DNA of 64,000 bases from the human T2T-CHM13v2.0 reference genome, Homo sapiens, in assembly GCF_009914755.1 (NCBI RefSeq), contig NC_060937.1; one strand, given 5' to 3'. The number at the start of each line of letters is the position of its first letter. Position 1 is the stretch's first letter. The notes under the pieces were generated by a model. It was given only the letters and a program-made list of their open reading frames with translations, did no database searches and was not told the DNA's origin. Positions 5,981-56,067 of the stretch are shown here, one piece after another. The translations under genes were made by a program, and so were the position numbers.

Positions 5981-6139
5981 CTTCTTTAAGAAGAGTATGA
6001 ATATCTTCCATATCACATCTGATTTTAGCTCTGCAGTTTAACAACTTCTTATCCCAAGTTATTAAGACCTCTTTCTGACATGCACCAACTTCTTCATAGT
6101 CTAATTTAACTTTTCTGGACTGGAGTTCATCTCTGCTTG
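5981..6139 (-). CDS. TBC1D4: TBC1D4 exon 15 (159 nt; [17 protein letters not shown]...HTLLKE)
   Basis: ORF 5913..6293; tttttccttag|CA acceptor, AAG|gtattt donor. Confidence 0.96.
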
Positions 6140-6639
6140 CTAAGGAAAAAAACAATTTACGTAAGACCAATGTGTTTTTCAAATGTAAAACTTTAGACAT
6201 TTGATTGTATTTGTAAAACCATACCAAATGACTTTCAGGAATCAACTGGTAGTGTATCTCAAAAAGAAAATTTAAAACAAATTGAGGATACATGAAAGGG
6301 TCCCAAGCTTTGAGTCATTTCATGTGAGAAAAAAAATGAGGAATAACCTCCTAAGGAGGTTTTACTCTGTATCTTACATATGGCGACTCTGCTAAGTATA
6401 AAAAGTAAACCGTGTTGATCATTCTATAATTTTCCATTTTTTGACACCACTGAAGTGTTAATATTTTATATGTGCCATACATGAGAAGACAAAGACTCAT
6501 GCTCATCTTGATTTGAAAAATATATGACCATAACATGATACATTTTTATAACTGTTTCCAGAGTTATCCATACTGCCCTTAATAACTAATAAAACTAGCT
6601 TATGTGTTCCCGTGTTCGTTATTTTCTCTTTCGTTTGTT

Positions 6640-6929
6640 TTTGCTTTTGTTTCTTAGAGACAGGGTCTCACTCTGTACCCCAAGCTGGAGTGCAGTGGTG
6701 CAATCATAGCTCACTGCAGCCTCAACCTCCTGAGCTCCCATCTCAGCCTCCTGGGTAGCTAGGACTACAGGCATGCGCCACTACACTTGGCTAATTTGAC
6801 AAACTTTTTTGTAAAGATGGGGTCTTGCTATGCTGCCCAGGCTGGTCTTAAACTCCTGGCCTCAAGCAATCCTCCTACCTCAGCCTCCCAAAGAGCTGGG
6901 ATAACAGGTGTGAGCCACTGCACCCAGCC
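6640..6929 (-). mobile_element. Alu (AluJ-like)
   Basis: Reverse-complement Alu with T-rich tail on the left. Confidence 0.9.
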
Positions 6930-7242
6930 CTCCTGTGTTCATTTGTAATAAACTTAAAAAGAAAAATTCCTTTCACTGAAGTTAACACTAATTCTATTTT
7001 TAAAATAATATAGAGTTCTCTCTAATTTGATGGTCTAACATATCCGCCCAGAGCTCATTAAAAGAAATGTCTATAAAAGCAACCAGTATCTTGATTTGTT
7101 CTTTATCATGAAAAACTGATTTCAAAAGAGAAGGAAGAGCAGACACAAGAGTATACTTCTTCTCTTCATTAGGATCACGGTGGACAGGAACATCTCAGAG
7201 CAATCTGTATTCATGCATGCTCACAGCGCTCGGCCACCTTAC

Positions 7243-7245
7243 CTC
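7243..7245 (-). CDS. TBC1D4: Candidate 3-nt alternative microexon (GAG) between exons 14 and 15; adds one Gly (KLE-G-ASR)
   Basis: Minus strand reads tttgtgttgcag|GAG|gtaagg, with TGCATG motifs on both sides; frame preserving. Confidence 0.6.
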
Positions 7246-9609
7246 CTGCAACACAAATCTTTGTCATGCATCCCAAGTCCTCGACAGCACAAAAACAACA
7301 GCAGAATGAAAGTTACTCTTTACTTAGTGTGTTTGAAACCATTTCAAAAGACTTAAAATATCTTATAACAAACTGTTATTCAAGCAAGGCAGTAAAAATT
7401 CCTACTTAAAAGTCCAAACATAATCTAAAGATAAATCACAGTACAAAACTATTCCTTCCGGATACCACAGATGGCTTTCTAACACTGTCTAGCTTGGCTG
7501 TTTGGCTATTTGCTTTATATTTCTCTGATAACCAAGTAATTTTTTAAAAGGTGTGGCTTTATTAAGGCTAAAAACAAATATACTCCTATATATAACTTTA
7601 CTAATTATTTTCTTCATGATGGACAAAACATAATTACTTCCTTAGAGTTTTTCTCTAATCTTCTCTAGATTATTGATCATTTAAAATAATCACGAGCATC
7701 TGCTTATGTGCCAGCCGCACACCCTGAGGATAAAATGGTGAACAGGGACAGTTAATATCTGCCCTTAACTGTTTAACTAGAAAAGACTAAAGAACTATCA
7801 AGAAATAATTATCCATTGGTTAGAATTTTCATAGGTTAAACTATTTTTTATCTTTGTTATGTAGGCAGAGAAACAGAGAACCGATGAAGGTTTCTGAGAA
7901 TGTATTCTAAATGTCACCTCCTTTCTTAACCTGTAAAATCATATAGTATAACTGATCTCAGAATACACAGCAGCCATTTATGTAAAACATTCCATTTCCT
8001 TATATTAACATACACAGCTGAGAAATACTGTGGGGTGCTGGGGAAAGCCCGAGAACCACGATGAATAAACCTGAGTTTTGGTACTTGCTCTGCCAGTATG
8101 TCACTATTTGACCTTAGGTTAATTCTCTACCTTTCCCAAGCCAGTCACTACTTCTACTGTAGAATGAAGAATCTAGCTAAGTAATCTCTAAGGCTATTTC
8201 TACTTCAAATAGTCTATGATTCTGAAACCACCTTTTGATATTTAATATCAGATTTTATTTGTACATACTCCCAAGTGAAATACAGTTTCATGCATTAAAT
8301 TTTTTGAGGAAAGGATGACCACCTTTTTTTCAACCTCTTTTTCTGAGTTAGTTCAAAATATAACTACTTGCTTACAAATATGAATTCAATTTCTTTTGAA
8401 GCCTGCGAAACCTCAAGTGGGCAGACCATTTATCAAACTGAACTTTTAAAATTATGCTAACGACAAGTAATAGCATTTTTAATTTTGAAGAAAAGAAGAT
8501 GTATTTCCAAAGGATATTTAAAATCCTATGTACTTTTCACTCTGCTAACAGCGATTTTAAAAAATGTGCTCTTGCAAACTATATATTGTTAAAATAAAAA
8601 AATTAAATTGAATCATAGGTGTAGTAACAAGAATCTTAAGGTAGATGATAAAGTCAGAAATGTGGAATACCTATACTAAAAAAGCTGTATGAAAGACCAC
8701 AAAATAAAGGCAAGTGAGAGAAATATCTAAATTATACTTGTGCCAATAATCTTAAAAGTCAAACGGACCACTTATGTTAAATGTTTCATTTTACAAGTGT
8801 AAAAATGAGACCCTTTCAGGTTAAGTGATTTTCCCAAAATAATGAAATTTATACATTTTTTTGGATTTCTTAGCATCTCCTTGTATGTGGTTCTATCAGT
8901 ACTGGAGTAAATTATATCATTCTTTCAAAGGCTGAAAAACACATTCCAAAGCATTTGGTAATCATAATCTTAGCAATAAGGCACCACAAACAGTACAAAA
9001 TCTATTATAAATTATTTGATTATAAATATAATGATTTGAATACGACTTTGTTAAATAGAAAATTTATAAAGCATTAACAAAAAATAGGAATAGGTTTGGC
9101 TTGATAACAGATAATTATAATTAAATAGTTAAATTGAATACAATGTAAGTAGGATTTACTTGAGGTAGGCATATTTCTCCCATTATGAATGTAATTAACC
9201 TGAAACTTGAAAATCACATTCAAAGAAAAGAAAATTTGCTTTCTCATATTTAAGGATTTTTTAGAAGTGACACTAAGATAATGAACTTTCAGACACATCA
9301 AATACATTGATTCCATATTATCTACATTCTATTTTACCTAAATATACTCTAAGAGTTTCTTAAGTCTTAAATCTATTTAAAATGCAAACCCATTTAAAAC
9401 AAAACCACAAATATCTTAAGCTGACCTTTCCCATGTTATAACCACCTCACAAAATGGAAATCAACAATTATAATCAGTAGGTATTCTTCTTAAAGTGTGC
9501 ATACAGTCCAAAACTGAGTGCGGATAGTATGTATGGGGAGAGAAAGGTAGGTTTAACATACACCCTTCAATCATAGCATCATAGCATTTAGTCTGTTAAA
9601 ATGGCTAAC

Positions 9610-9819
9610 CTTCAAGTTTCTGGTTTTCTTTTTCCATTCGAAGTAACAAGATTTGTTGGTGTATAGCTTTTCTCCACAAGCTCCTCAGTTCTTTTGATTT
9701 CTTTCTTTCTTCAATCTTTTCTGGGTCATCCTCCCCAGACAGGAATACAACCAGCGGTTCCTCCTCCATGGTTGGAGAGAGGGGGGACAGTGGCAGCAGC
9801 TCGTTCCTGTCCAATCCAT
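9610..9819 (-). CDS. TBC1D4: TBC1D4 exon 14 (210 nt; GLDRNELL...[26 protein letters not shown], calmodulin-binding helix)
   Basis: ORF 9605..9847; ttctctgcag|AT acceptor, AAG|gttagc donor. Confidence 0.97.
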
Positions 9820-19679: not shown

Positions 19680-19703
19680 CTTGATTCTGAAGCAGTGTCT
19701 TGT
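19680..19703 (-). CDS. TBC1D4: TBC1D4 exon 12 (24-nt microexon; QDTASES)
   Basis: ttttcctgttgtaccag|ACAAGACACTGCTTCAGAATCAAG|gtgatt; phase 2-2; restores the expected S751 numbering downstream. Confidence 0.93.
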
Positions 19704-23902: not shown

Positions 23903-24067
23903 CTGATTTCATTTTCATACTGTGGGGACAGTCTACCTGAATTCTGGTAAAAGCTTTTCAGGAAAGAGGGGGCAGTGAAGGAAGGGGCAGAGAAGGAAGT
24001 GTGAAGACTTGGAAGACTGGAGGAAGAATTACTCTCCTTGTACATGCGTCGAACTGACGAAAGATTG
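23903..24067 (-). CDS. TBC1D4: TBC1D4 exon 11 (165 nt, long-isoform cassette; [10 protein letters not shown]...QYENEI; R684, S704)
   Basis: tgtactcag|CAA acceptor, CAG|gtgaga donor; phase 2-2, 55 codons, no stop. Confidence 0.95.
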
Positions 24068-36587: not shown

Positions 36588-36707
36588 CCTTGAGAAGATA
36601 TTTTCCAGGGAGCTAGTTAAGGATCTCTTAGCTTTATTTTTCAGAATGTCAAGTTTGAACCTTCCACTGCTTGTTGCATTTTCTGGGATTGTACTATTTG
36701 AAATAGT
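36588..36707 (-). CDS. TBC1D4: TBC1D4 exon 8 (120 nt; [10 protein letters not shown]...[14 protein letters not shown]; T568/S570)
   Basis: tttttttag|ACT acceptor, AGG|gtaaga donor. Confidence 0.96.
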
Positions 36708-55140: not shown

Positions 55141-56067
55141 TGCAATACAAAATTGATGGGAATATATCTTTTAATCAGCAATATGGAAAGCAACATCAGT
55201 TCTCTGCTTTCACAGCTCTACGAATCTCTCCTTCACAGCAATGAAGGGGGGACATAATGCCTTGAACTCCAATTACCTTTAGTTGAGAGTAGGAGAGGGG
55301 TAGTATTAAAGAGAATTGACTTTTAAATGCCAAAGAAGAAAATTAAGGTTAAAGTAAGACCACAAAGTATATGATATTTCAAAAATGAAGAAGGGGCTAA
55401 TAAAATAAAAGAAGAAAACCAAAATAGCTCTCTGTTCTGCTGATATAAGCATTATCTACTCTGCAATGTTATAGCAGTTAAGAAAATAAAAGATCAATGG
55501 CCTTCCTTATCTTCTCATATGAGCAATGAAAAAAGTAACAGCTTTTCTCCTATTATTAGTCTTTTCCTGCCTTTTAAAAAGCTCAAGTTTCCATGACTGG
55601 GTTTATTAAACCCACAAAAGTATGTAGGCATATATTTTACCATGACAATTTGTTTTTGCTTTTCTACTGCTGTGCTGCTTTGAAGGGGAGGAACATATTT
55701 CTAGACGCCTTCTTCTTTTCCCATAGATAGCCATATTGCAAGGCTTGGGCTCCTAAGAGACAAGTCTTCTGTTCGACAGATGTGTCCGCAGGAGCAGGCA
55801 GACAGCAATAACACTACTTACCAGAGATTCGCTGGCACACTGGAATACATAACAAATATACTGGCTAAGTCCAGGCTCTGGAGACTCCCGGCAGATAAAG
55901 CCAAAGTGATCCACATGCTTTATACCCTAGATGGAGGGGAAGAAGTGCAATAAAAATGTATGGGAATATATATTTTTTACTCAACAATATGGAAAGCAAC
56001 ATCAGTTCTTTGCTTTCACAGTTCTACGAATTTCTCCTTCACAGCAATGAAGGGGGGACATAATGCC
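55141..56067. repeat. Dispersed direct repeat: 55141-55261 matches 55946-56067 (~120 bp) on either side of exon 4
   Basis: caatatggaaagcaacatcagttct...cacagcaatgaaggggggacataatgcc occurs twice. Confidence 0.95.
55822..55926 (-). CDS. TBC1D4: TBC1D4 exon 4 (105 nt; [14 protein letters not shown]...CASESL, PTB domain)
   Basis: ctccatctag|GGT acceptor, CTG|gtaagt donor; PTB signature HFGFI...YVFQC. Confidence 0.96.

What the first reader, a model, noticed from the sequence alone, without database searches (positions are those of the whole stretch)
7205..7330. Candidate 3-nt regulated microexon (GAG) in TBC1D4 intron 14
Seen: the minus strand reads ...TGCATGacaaagatttgtgtTGCAG|GAG|GTAAGGtggccgagcgctgtgaGCATGCATG. 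An acceptor and a strong donor enclose exactly 3 nt (7243-7245). TGCATG lies at 7265-7270 upstream and overlapping TGCATG/GCATG at 7212-7220 downstream, with further UGC-containing U-rich sequence and a CACTAAG upstream. Established: downstream UGCAUG (RBFOX) promotes inclusion, and UGC near the 3' splice site is the SRRM3/4 microexon signature. Inference: inclusion changes KLE-ASR to KLE-G-ASR, a one-residue insertion in the helix between the calmodulin-binding segment and the GAP domain, which would shift helical register. From memory (unverified), AS160 sequences differing by one residue at this point exist in human and mouse. Standard aligners would miss such an exon or call it a 3-nt insertion.
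Basis: partly seen in the sequence, partly recalled or inferred. Interest (0 to 1): 0.8.

Follow-up and report, generated by a model that had tools for sequence, protein, structure and literature searches.

The report
Real three-base microexon in TBC1D4
A three-letter exon hidden in an intron of the insulin-response gene TBC1D4 is genuine and adds one amino acid to the protein in some samples, but a public splicing database already lists it.

Summary
The minus strand reads ttgcag|GAG|gtaagg, with GAG at 7245-7243. TGCATG lies 20-25 nt upstream and GCATGCATG 23-31 nt downstream. Insertion between the exons ending at 9610 and starting at 6139 gives KLE-G-ASR.

The exon is real and already catalogued. 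Supplemental Table S4 of Tapial et al. 2017 (PMC5630039) lists TBC1D4 event HsaEX0063890: 3 nt, class MIC, 96 samples, mean PSI 5.77, range 0-84.01, "SwitchAS". Its distances to both flanking splice sites (2365 and 1104 nt) match the window exactly.

Gene models agree. With an unbiased query, 11 of 120 TBC1D4 models carry one extra residue exactly at this junction. It is Gly in three monkeys. It is Glu in mouse isoform X5, other mammals, a marsupial, birds, a crocodile and squamates. No human-labelled model has it.

AlphaFold2 places the junction inside a confident 41-residue helix leading into the RabGAP domain.

RBFOX or SRRM3/4 control rests on motifs only. The tissue with 84% inclusion was not available to me.

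Verdict: correct reading, already known as a database event, functionally unstudied.

The parts
7243..7245 (-). 3-nt cassette microexon GAG. It adds one Gly codon (G|GA G|CA) between ...KLE and ASR...
   Evidence: Sequence; reading phase. It equals VastDB HsaEX0063890 (length 3, class MIC, PSI 0-84.01) by exact offsets of 2365 and 1104 nt. Three monkey models carry Gly at this junction.
7246..7268 (-). 3' splice site region: ttgcag, with UGC at -5..-3 and a purine-rich, pyrimidine-poor proximal stretch
   Evidence: Pyrimidine fraction over -20..-3 is 0.44, the lowest against 0.61-0.89 for the 14 annotated exons scored in the window.
7237..7242 (-). 5' splice site GAG|gtaagg: seven consecutive consensus positions (-2 to +5)
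   Evidence: Among the 14 annotated exons, only 36588-36707 and 55822-55926 also have gtaag.
7265..7270 (-). Upstream TGCATG (RBFOX-type hexamer) at -25..-20. It overlaps a possible branch point (caugAc).
   Evidence: The branch-point role is inference only.
7212..7220 (-). Downstream GCATGCATG, two overlapping (U)GCAUG at +23..+31
   Evidence: Li et al. 2015 report TGCATG over-represented downstream of alternative micro-exons (passages).
7283..7312 (-). Distal U-rich tract with two UGC (-67..-38), preceded by the branch-point-like gtaac and cactaag (7312-7329)
   Evidence: Pyrimidine fraction over -65..-21 is 0.60, third highest of the 15 sites scored. The layout matches published descriptions of alternative microexons (passages).
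9610..9819 (-). Upstream constitutive exon (exon 14 of NM_014832.5), ending ...MEKENQKLE plus G
   Evidence: hub annotation.
5981..6139 (-). Downstream exon (exon 15), starting CA AGC AGA = (A)SR
   Evidence: hub annotation. Five of 211 orthologue models skip it in frame.

Best explanation
Window 7243-7245 (minus strand) is a genuine, frame-preserving 3-nt cassette microexon in intron 14 of TBC1D4.

Inclusion pattern: most human samples skip it (mean inclusion about 6%), but a few include it strongly (up to 84%). It therefore behaves as a switch.

Protein effect: inclusion adds one residue between the end of the DUF3350 segment and the start of the RabGAP domain, in the middle of a long predicted helix. 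The residue is Gly in human and monkeys and Glu in other amniotes.

Likely recognition (inferred): the very strong 5' splice site (GAG|GUAAGG) compensates for a weak, pyrimidine-poor 3' splice site. That site's pyrimidine tract and branch point lie 40-80 nt upstream, which is the usual architecture of regulated microexons.

Likely regulators (inferred, about even odds for each):
- RBFOX proteins bound to GCAUGCAUG 23-31 nt downstream could promote inclusion.
- SRRM3/4 acting through the UGC motifs next to the AG could also promote inclusion.

Likely consequence (inferred): the one-residue insertion rotates the calmodulin-binding/DUF3350 part by about 100 degrees relative to the GAP domain. In primates it also places a helix-destabilising Gly there, which could tune GAP activity or its control.
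For: Shown:
1. The sequence is exactly as described.
2. Tapial et al. 2017 Table S4 (PMC5630039, held supplement file 7, passages seen) gives this row: TBC1D4, HsaEX0063890, chr13:75881711-75881713, length 3, flanks 75884078 and 75880607, MIC, N_samples 96, PercAS 11, AvPSI 5.77, MIN 0, MAX 84.01, SwitchAS. The offsets of 2365 and 1104 nt equal 9610-7245 and 7243-6139.
3. With an unbiased query (the exon-14 translation), 11 of 120 listed TBC1D4 models have one extra residue exactly at KLE|A(S/R)R: 3 Gly and 8 Glu.
4. Queries that themselves carry the residue brought the total to 87 of 244 models: 3 Gly, 79 Glu, 3 Val, 2 Ala. These include Mus musculus X5, Sarcophilus X5/X6, Gallus X1/X3, Crocodylus, Crotalus and Sphaerodactylus.
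5. Gly occurs only in Macaca fascicularis, Chlorocebus and Cebus. This fits GAG in the human DNA. The human intron holds 0 sites that could encode Glu and 7 that could encode Gly. Only this one of the 7 has CAG plus GTAAG.
6. The acceptor is weak proximally (pyrimidine fraction 0.44) and pyrimidine-rich distally (0.60), and the donor is strong. This matches published microexon architecture (passages).
7. The AlphaFold2 model has helix 110-150 at pLDDT 90-95, with the junction at 138|139.
8. The junction is the last position of Pfam DUF3350. It lies 9 residues before the crystallised TBC1D4 GAP domain 3qyb. The TBC1D1 crystal chain 3qye aligns from query residue 139, the first residue after the junction.
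Against: 1. No human-labelled protein record with the extra Gly was among the cluster representatives listed. The hub's RefSeq table has no exon here.
2. A read carrying ...GAAG-GAG-CAAG... cannot by itself tell this site from three other AG|GAG|GT sites in the same intron (7920-7918, 6729-6727, 6350-6348). The placement rests on splice-site quality. Li et al. 2015 found 21.7% of 3-nt inserts ambiguous.
3. I could not examine DNA of other vertebrates. Conservation of the AG/GT and GCATG motifs, and the position of the Glu-coding triplet in other species, are therefore untested. In birds the residue could be constitutive.
4. On regulators, TBC1D4 was absent from every supplement searched:
   - Srrm3 photoreceptor paper (12 of 17 files)
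   - conserved neuronal microexon paper (10 files)
   - MicroExonator mouse paper (7 files)
   - nSR100 knockout paper (only 1,066 characters held)
   The event id also appears in no other searched file of Tapial's supplement.
5. The upstream TGCATG sits where RBFOX binding usually represses.
6. Gene models from automatic pipelines can copy a residue from one species to another by protein alignment.
Confidence: 0.85

Rival explanations
1. The extra codon in mRNAs is real but comes from another AG|GAG|GT site in the same intron, or from several sites. On this reading 7243-7245 is only the best-looking candidate.
For: One search finds four AG|GAG|GT sites in the 3470-nt intron: 7920-7918, 7245-7243, 6729-6727 and 6350-6348. 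The site at 6350-6348 has a good acceptor (cctccttag). Li et al. 2015 report that 21.7% of 3-nt inserts map ambiguously.
Against: The other three sites have poor donors (gtgaca, gttgag, gttatt). One has a purine-rich acceptor (gttaagaaag). Another lies in a stretch NCBI masks as repeat (6631-6935) and looks Alu-like. Only 7245-7243 combines CAG with GTAAGG and flanking GCATG motifs. VastDB places the event here.
Confidence: 0.06
2. The microexon is real, but inclusion is driven mainly by SRRM3/4 (the neuronal/endocrine programme). The GCATG motifs would be secondary or repressive.
For: UGC lies at -5..-3 directly before the AG, and there are four TGC in 60 nt, which 1.2% of windows reach. The site has weak proximal and strong distal pyrimidine content plus a strong 5' splice site. 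This is the architecture described for SRRM3/4-dependent microexons (passages). The upstream TGCATG overlaps a possible branch point, where RBFOX would repress.
Against: TBC1D4 is absent from the supplements searched for Srrm3-dependent retinal microexons (12 of 17 files) and for conserved neuronal microexons. A UGC motif is neither necessary nor sufficient.
Confidence: 0.3
3. The site acts chiefly as a recursive splice site or decoy. Because the microexon ends in AG, splicing exon 14 to the second AG (GAG|) would regenerate a 5' splice site (AAG|GTAAGG). The intron would then be removed in two steps, yielding the skipped mRNA. The 3-nt product would be a by-product of choosing the first AG.
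For: Sequence only: CAG GAG GTAAGG is a tandem NAG-NAG directly abutting a strong donor. Mean inclusion is low at 5.77%.
Against: GAG is the least favoured acceptor triplet (recalled knowledge). The intron is only 3.5 kb, so recursion is not needed. Inclusion reaches 84% in at least one sample. The extra residue is kept in gene models across amniotes, which argues for selection on the protein product. No lariat or intermediate data were available.
Confidence: 0.04
4. Chance coincidence of motifs: no exon is used here, and the database entries and gene models are artefacts.
For: There are 222 AG-NNN-GT sites on this strand of the window alone. Automatic annotation can propagate an extra residue between species. 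No human protein record with the Gly was listed.
Against: VastDB gives a quantified event in 96 samples with PSI up to 84.01. The residue changes with lineage, Gly in monkeys and Glu elsewhere, in the way the DNA predicts. The Val and Ala variants look like aligners failing to place a separate tiny exon.
Confidence: 0.03

Closest known systems
VastDB event HsaEX0063890 (TBC1D4, 3 nt, class MIC; Tapial et al. 2017, Supplemental Table S4)
   Same: It is the same object. The length is identical, and the distances to both neighbouring splice sites are identical at 2365 and 1104 nt.
   Different: Nothing differs in the object itself. The table gives only summary PSI values. I saw no tissue, regulator or function, and no searchable main text mentions the event.
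Cytohesin-1/-2/-3 3-nt microexon (diglycine/triglycine PH-domain variants; Ratcliffe et al. 2019, PMC6314551)
   Same: It is a conserved 3-nt cassette microexon that adds a single glycine inside a structured region and switches function (passages). From recall, not from a call, that exon is also the triplet GAG.
   Different: It sits in a different gene family. There the insertion lies in a PH-domain lipid-binding loop with a proven effect on phosphoinositide specificity. Here it lies in a helix before a RabGAP domain with no functional data. Here the residue is Glu in most amniotes and Gly only in monkeys and human.
Other 3-nt micro-exons: TLN1 (Li et al. 2015) and CLTC HsaEX0015816 (Tapial Table S4)
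   Same: Both are 3-nt exons found only by dedicated pipelines. The TLN1 exon is said to be conserved in mammals. The CLTC exon is listed as MIC in the same table.
   Different: They are unrelated genes, and I made no comparison of their flanking motifs.
RBFOX-enhanced alternative micro-exons (Li et al. 2015, PMC4317164)
   Same: TGCATG lies just downstream. Thymine content is low immediately upstream and higher beyond 20 nt upstream.
   Different: That study dropped exons shorter than 6 nt from its analysis. RBFOX binding or response at this site is untested. An extra TGCATG lies upstream, which is a position usually linked to repression.
SRRM3/4-dependent neuronal and islet microexons
   Same: UGC lies next to the AG, the pyrimidine tract and branch point are distant, and the 5' splice site is strong.
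   Different: TBC1D4 was not found in the SRRM3/4-related lists I could search. No expression or perturbation evidence was seen.

Membership tests
Microexon (3-27 nt cassette exon; VastDB class MIC) | Length of 3-27 nt, flanked by canonical AG and GT | tested here: met
   3 nt, cag|GAG|gtaagg.
Microexon (3-27 nt cassette exon; VastDB class MIC) | Observed inclusion in mature mRNA | tested here: met
   I counted no reads. Tapial et al. 2017 Table S4 lists the event with PSI 0-84.01 over 96 samples. Coordinates were matched to the window by exact offsets.
Microexon (3-27 nt cassette exon; VastDB class MIC) | Preserves the reading frame | tested here: met
   Phase-1 intron; the 3 nt add one codon, giving KLE-G-ASR.
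Microexon (3-27 nt cassette exon; VastDB class MIC) | Evolutionary conservation of the exon | tested here: inconclusive
   Protein models with one extra residue at the junction occur across amniotes (87 of 244 models). No vertebrate DNA was available to align the exon or its motifs.
RBFOX-regulated exon | (U)GCAUG in the proximal downstream intron | tested here: met
   GCATGCATG at +23..+31. This is the only triple GCATG cluster in 64 kb.
RBFOX-regulated exon | RBFOX binding (CLIP) or a splicing change on RBFOX perturbation; inclusion in brain, heart or muscle | not testable with these tools
   No read or CLIP data were available. Of the 23 papers holding both Tbc1d4 and Rbfox, none of the 15 listed concerned this splicing event, judging by title and abstract start only.
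SRRM3/4-dependent microexon | UGC between the pyrimidine tract/branch point and the AG; weak proximal 3' splice site; strong 5' splice site | tested here: met
   UGC at -5..-3. Pyrimidine fraction is 0.44 proximally and 0.60 distally. The donor is GTAAGG. The architecture is as described.
SRRM3/4-dependent microexon | Neural, retinal or islet-enriched inclusion that responds to SRRM3/4 | tested here: inconclusive
   TBC1D4 is absent from the searched supplements. Several files were not searchable and the bioRxiv supplements were closed.

The most novel reading that the evidence does not exclude
The microexon may be a cell-type switch that re-registers the single long helix joining the calmodulin-binding/DUF3350 segment to the RabGAP domain of AS160. 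That would change how Ca2+/calmodulin or phosphorylation inputs reach GAP activity towards GLUT4-vesicle Rabs. In the simian lineage, a single base change in the microexon (Glu triplet to GAG) would have replaced a helix-forming Glu with a helix-breaking Gly, giving primates a different 'on' isoform from other amniotes.
Probability: 0.2. Interest if true: 0.6.

Novelty: already known. Interest (0 to 1): 0.3.

Why it matters
TBC1D4 (AS160) is the RabGAP that gates insulin- and contraction-stimulated GLUT4 traffic. A switch-like one-residue insertion next to its GAP domain would give an isoform difference that the RefSeq table supplied for this window lacks and that standard RNA-seq aligners mostly miss.

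The event sits in a database table. In the library I could search, no paper's main text discusses it. Its tissue pattern, regulators and effect on GAP activity or calmodulin control therefore appear unstudied.

For the scan, this is a useful positive control. A reader working from raw sequence alone located a true 3-nt exon.

Tried and rejected
1. RNA structure. The idea was that the upstream UGCAUG pairs with the downstream CAUGCA to loop out the exon. Folding 7285-7200 (minus strand) gave -17 kcal/mol against a shuffle mean of -20.2, z = +1.10, and 176 of 200 shuffles folded at least as well. Rejected.

2. Deep homologues. Among the best 150 representatives at 50% identity (TBC1D1, fish and invertebrate relatives), 85 local alignments spanned the junction.
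   - None shows a clean one-residue insertion at the junction.
   - Two (P0214, P0271) have a spacing one residue longer, with the gap placed a few residues downstream.
   - Several have long inserts starting with G at the exact junction (P0216, P0217, P0230). These look like intron read-through, which shows only that the phase-1 intron is old.
   - So there is no evidence for the microexon outside amniote TBC1D4, and none against it either.

3. Literature.
   - TBC1D4 + microexon: 0 papers.
   - TBC1D4 + micro-exon: 0 papers.
   - AS160 + microexon: 1 general review (listing only).
   - HsaEX0063890: 0 papers.
   - Tbc1d4 + Rbfox: 23 papers, and none of the 15 listed is about this splicing, by title.

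4. Supplements without TBC1D4.
   - MicroExonator, 7 files.
   - Srrm3 photoreceptor paper, 12 of 17 files.
   - Li et al. 2015, 5 files searched, file 1 not searchable.
   - eLife 2025 zebrafish paper, 10 files.
   - nSR100 knockout paper, 1,066 characters searched, file 2 not searchable.

5. Mouse or chicken row of the Tapial table. A phrase search across tabs failed. Guessed mouse event-id prefixes hit other Tbc1d genes.

6. Sources not available. Irimia et al. 2014 (PMC4390143) is not held.

Full report
**1. Observation**

On the minus strand the window reads ...tgcatgacaaagatttgtgttgcag|GAG|gtaaggtggccgagcgctgtgagcatgcatga....
- GAG occupies 7245-7243.
- The upstream TGCATG is at 7270-7265 (-25..-20).
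- GCATGCATG is at 7220-7212 (+23..+31).
- CACTAAG is at 7329-7323.

The upstream annotated exon ends ...AAACTTGAAG at 9610. The next exon begins CAAGCAGAG at 6139. The exon-14 translation ends ...MEKENQKLE, with one G left over. The 3 nt therefore add a single Gly codon and restore the Ala codon, giving KLE-G-ASR.

**2. Is the motif layout more than chance?**

- The 64-kb window holds 222 (minus strand) and 200 (plus strand) AG-NNN-GT sites. Only 5 and 7 of these have YAG plus GTRAG.
- Three minus-strand sites have GCATG within 60 nt on both sides. This is the only one of the three with strong splice sites.
- It is the only place on either strand with three GCATG within 60 nt.
- Four TGC lie in the 60 nt upstream, which 1.2% of 60-nt windows reach.
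- Within the 3470-nt intron there are 18 AG-NNN-GT sites. Seven could encode Gly and none Glu. Only 7245-7243 combines CAG with GTAAG.

The layout is unusual locally. Motifs alone would still not prove an exon genome-wide.

**3. Decisive evidence**

Supplemental Table S4 of Tapial et al. 2017 (Genome Res; PMC5630039) is held as supplement file 7. I saw passages only, and file 1 of that supplement could not be searched. The table contains this row: TBC1D4, HsaEX0063890, chr13:75881711-75881713, LENGTH 3, FullCO chr13:75884078,75881711-75881713,75880607, COMPLEX MIC, N_samples 96, PercAS 11, AvPSI 5.77, MIN 0, MAX 84.01, RANGE 84.01, TYPE SwitchAS. The same event is listed again as LFAS.

The distance from the upstream donor to the exon is 2365 nt, equal to 9610-7245. 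The distance from the exon to the downstream acceptor is 1104 nt, equal to 7243-6139. The database event is therefore this very triplet.

The paper defines SwitchAS as PSI >90 or <10 in more than 80% of samples with a PSI range of at least 80. The exon is thus real, mostly skipped and strongly included in a minority of samples. The table does not say which samples.

**4. Independent support from gene models**

I searched a large protein collection with the exon-14 translation, taking longer proteins. It returned 1339 hits, of which 120 were listed.
- 11 of the 120 carry exactly one extra residue at the junction.
- Three have Gly: Macaca fascicularis A0A2K5VUQ4, Chlorocebus isoform X3 and Cebus imitator X4.
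- Eight have Glu: four Ictidomys isoforms, Otolemur, Chrysochloris, Tupaia and Orycteropus.

Two further searches used 51-residue regions that themselves contain the extra residue, which biases the ranking towards such forms. They added many more.
- Over all 244 models examined: 79 Glu, 3 Gly, 3 Val and 2 Ala.
- The Glu forms include Mus musculus isoform X5 (P0371), hamster, Peromyscus, squirrel, naked mole-rat, pika, dog X4, a cat-family cluster, bats and a mole.
- They also include Tasmanian devil X5/X6, chicken X1/X3 and many other birds, Crocodylus, Crotalus and Sphaerodactylus.
- No human- or ape-labelled model in the lists has the residue. A human form hidden inside a 90%-identity cluster cannot be excluded.

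The Val forms (Ensembl-derived turkey and flycatcher) and Ala forms (alpaca) are what would result if an aligner pushed the exon-15 acceptor 3 nt upstream (tag gives G|TA, cag gives G|CA). I read these as attempts to fit a residue that is not contiguous with either flanking exon. This is inference, because I had no DNA from those species.

Gly in monkeys fits GAG in the human DNA. Glu elsewhere would need AAG or AGG, one base away.

**5. How it is probably recognised (inferred)**

- The donor GAG|GTAAGG matches the consensus at seven consecutive positions.
- The acceptor has the lowest proximal pyrimidine content of the 15 sites scored: 0.44 against 0.61-0.89 for the 14 annotated exons.
- It has high distal pyrimidine content (0.60), with a U-rich, UGC-bearing tract at -67..-38 and branch-point-like sequences beyond it.

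This is the architecture published for regulated microexons. Li et al. 2015 (passages) describe lower T immediately upstream, higher T beyond 20 nt, and TGCATG enriched downstream. A 2025 preprint on SRRM3/4 sensitivity (passages) describes a strong 5' splice site, a pyrimidine tract and branch point far from the AG, and UGC near the AG.

The downstream GCAUGCAUG is well placed for RBFOX enhancement. The UGC at -5..-3 is well placed for SRRM3/4. Neither is shown.
- TBC1D4 was absent from every SRRM3/4- or neuron-centred supplement I could search.
- It was absent from the MicroExonator mouse tables.
- Li et al. 2015 excluded exons under 6 nt from their analysis.

An RNA stem between the flanking GCAUG motifs is not supported (z = +1.10).

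**6. Protein context**

- The junction is the last position of Pfam DUF3350 (PF11830, residues 587-650 of P0019).
- It lies 9 residues before the crystallised TBC1D4 GAP domain. Structure 3qyb covers P0002 147-444, and the junction is 138|139.
- The TBC1D1 structure 3qye aligns from query residue 139.
- An AlphaFold2 model built from a 67-sequence alignment has mean pLDDT 83.5. It puts the junction in the middle of a single helix, 110-150, at pLDDT 90-95.

A one-residue insertion there would rotate the N-terminal part of the helix by about 100 degrees relative to the GAP domain, and Gly would weaken the helix. This is inference. That the calmodulin-binding segment lies in this stretch is recalled, not tested.

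Among deep homologues (TBC1D1, fish and invertebrate relatives; 85 alignments spanning the junction), the spacing is the short form. Two ambiguous cases are one residue longer. The short form is therefore ancestral, and the microexon is so far documented only for amniote TBC1D4.

**7. Comparison with what is known, and novelty**

The object is identical to VastDB HsaEX0063890, so it is already known as an event. The closest studied analogue is the 3-nt microexon of the cytohesins, which adds one glycine in the PH domain and changes lipid specificity and cell migration (passages). Other 3-nt exons are TLN1 and CLTC.

What appears unstudied is everything beyond its existence. No main text in the searchable library links TBC1D4 or AS160 with a microexon. 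The RefSeq table supplied for the window has no exon here.

**8. Verdict**

The regulators remain hypotheses. The finding is not new. Interest is modest (0.3), because the gene is central to insulin-regulated glucose transport and the isoform is functionally unexplored.

Noticed in passing
window 7243-7245; proteins P0015, P0019, P0042 versus P0371, P0155, P0379 and others: The extra residue is Gly only in the three monkey models, and GAG in the human DNA agrees with that. It is Glu in all other mammals, birds and reptiles listed. This suggests a single base change in the microexon on the simian lineage that swapped a helix-forming residue for Gly.
   Followed up: partly
window 23903-24067 (exon 11, 165 nt): The same Tapial table lists this annotated exon of the RefSeq-selected transcript as HsaEX0063893, SwitchAS, with mean PSI 6.8 and range 0-98.85 over 98 samples. 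The selected transcript therefore carries an exon that most sampled tissues skip.
   Followed up: no
window 19680-19703 (exon 12, 24 nt): An annotated 24-nt exon, itself a microexon by the 3-27 nt definition. Its acceptor is ccag and its donor is gtgatt.
   Followed up: no
window 5981-6139 (exon 15, 159 nt): Five of 211 orthologue models join KLE directly to GVPKSRRG (P0012, P0053, P0067, P0085, P0097). This is an in-frame skip of the exon, which would remove the helix that leads into the GAP domain.
   Followed up: no
window 9600-9609 (start of intron 14); protein P0050: One squirrel model ends ...KLEG. That is what reading through the donor gives (GAA GGT TAG), so it is an intron-retention model truncated before the GAP domain.
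   Followed up: no
proteins P0216, P0217, P0230 (unnamed 50%-identity representatives): Long inserts beginning with G sit at exactly this junction in distant TBC1D4/TBC1D1-like models. They probably reflect intron read-through in automatic predictions, and they indicate that the phase-1 intron position is old and shared with TBC1D1.
   Followed up: no
window 6727-6729: Another AG|GAG|GT site lies inside a stretch NCBI masks as repeat (6631-6935) that looks Alu-like. It is one of the four places where a read with an extra GAG could formally be mapped.
   Followed up: partly
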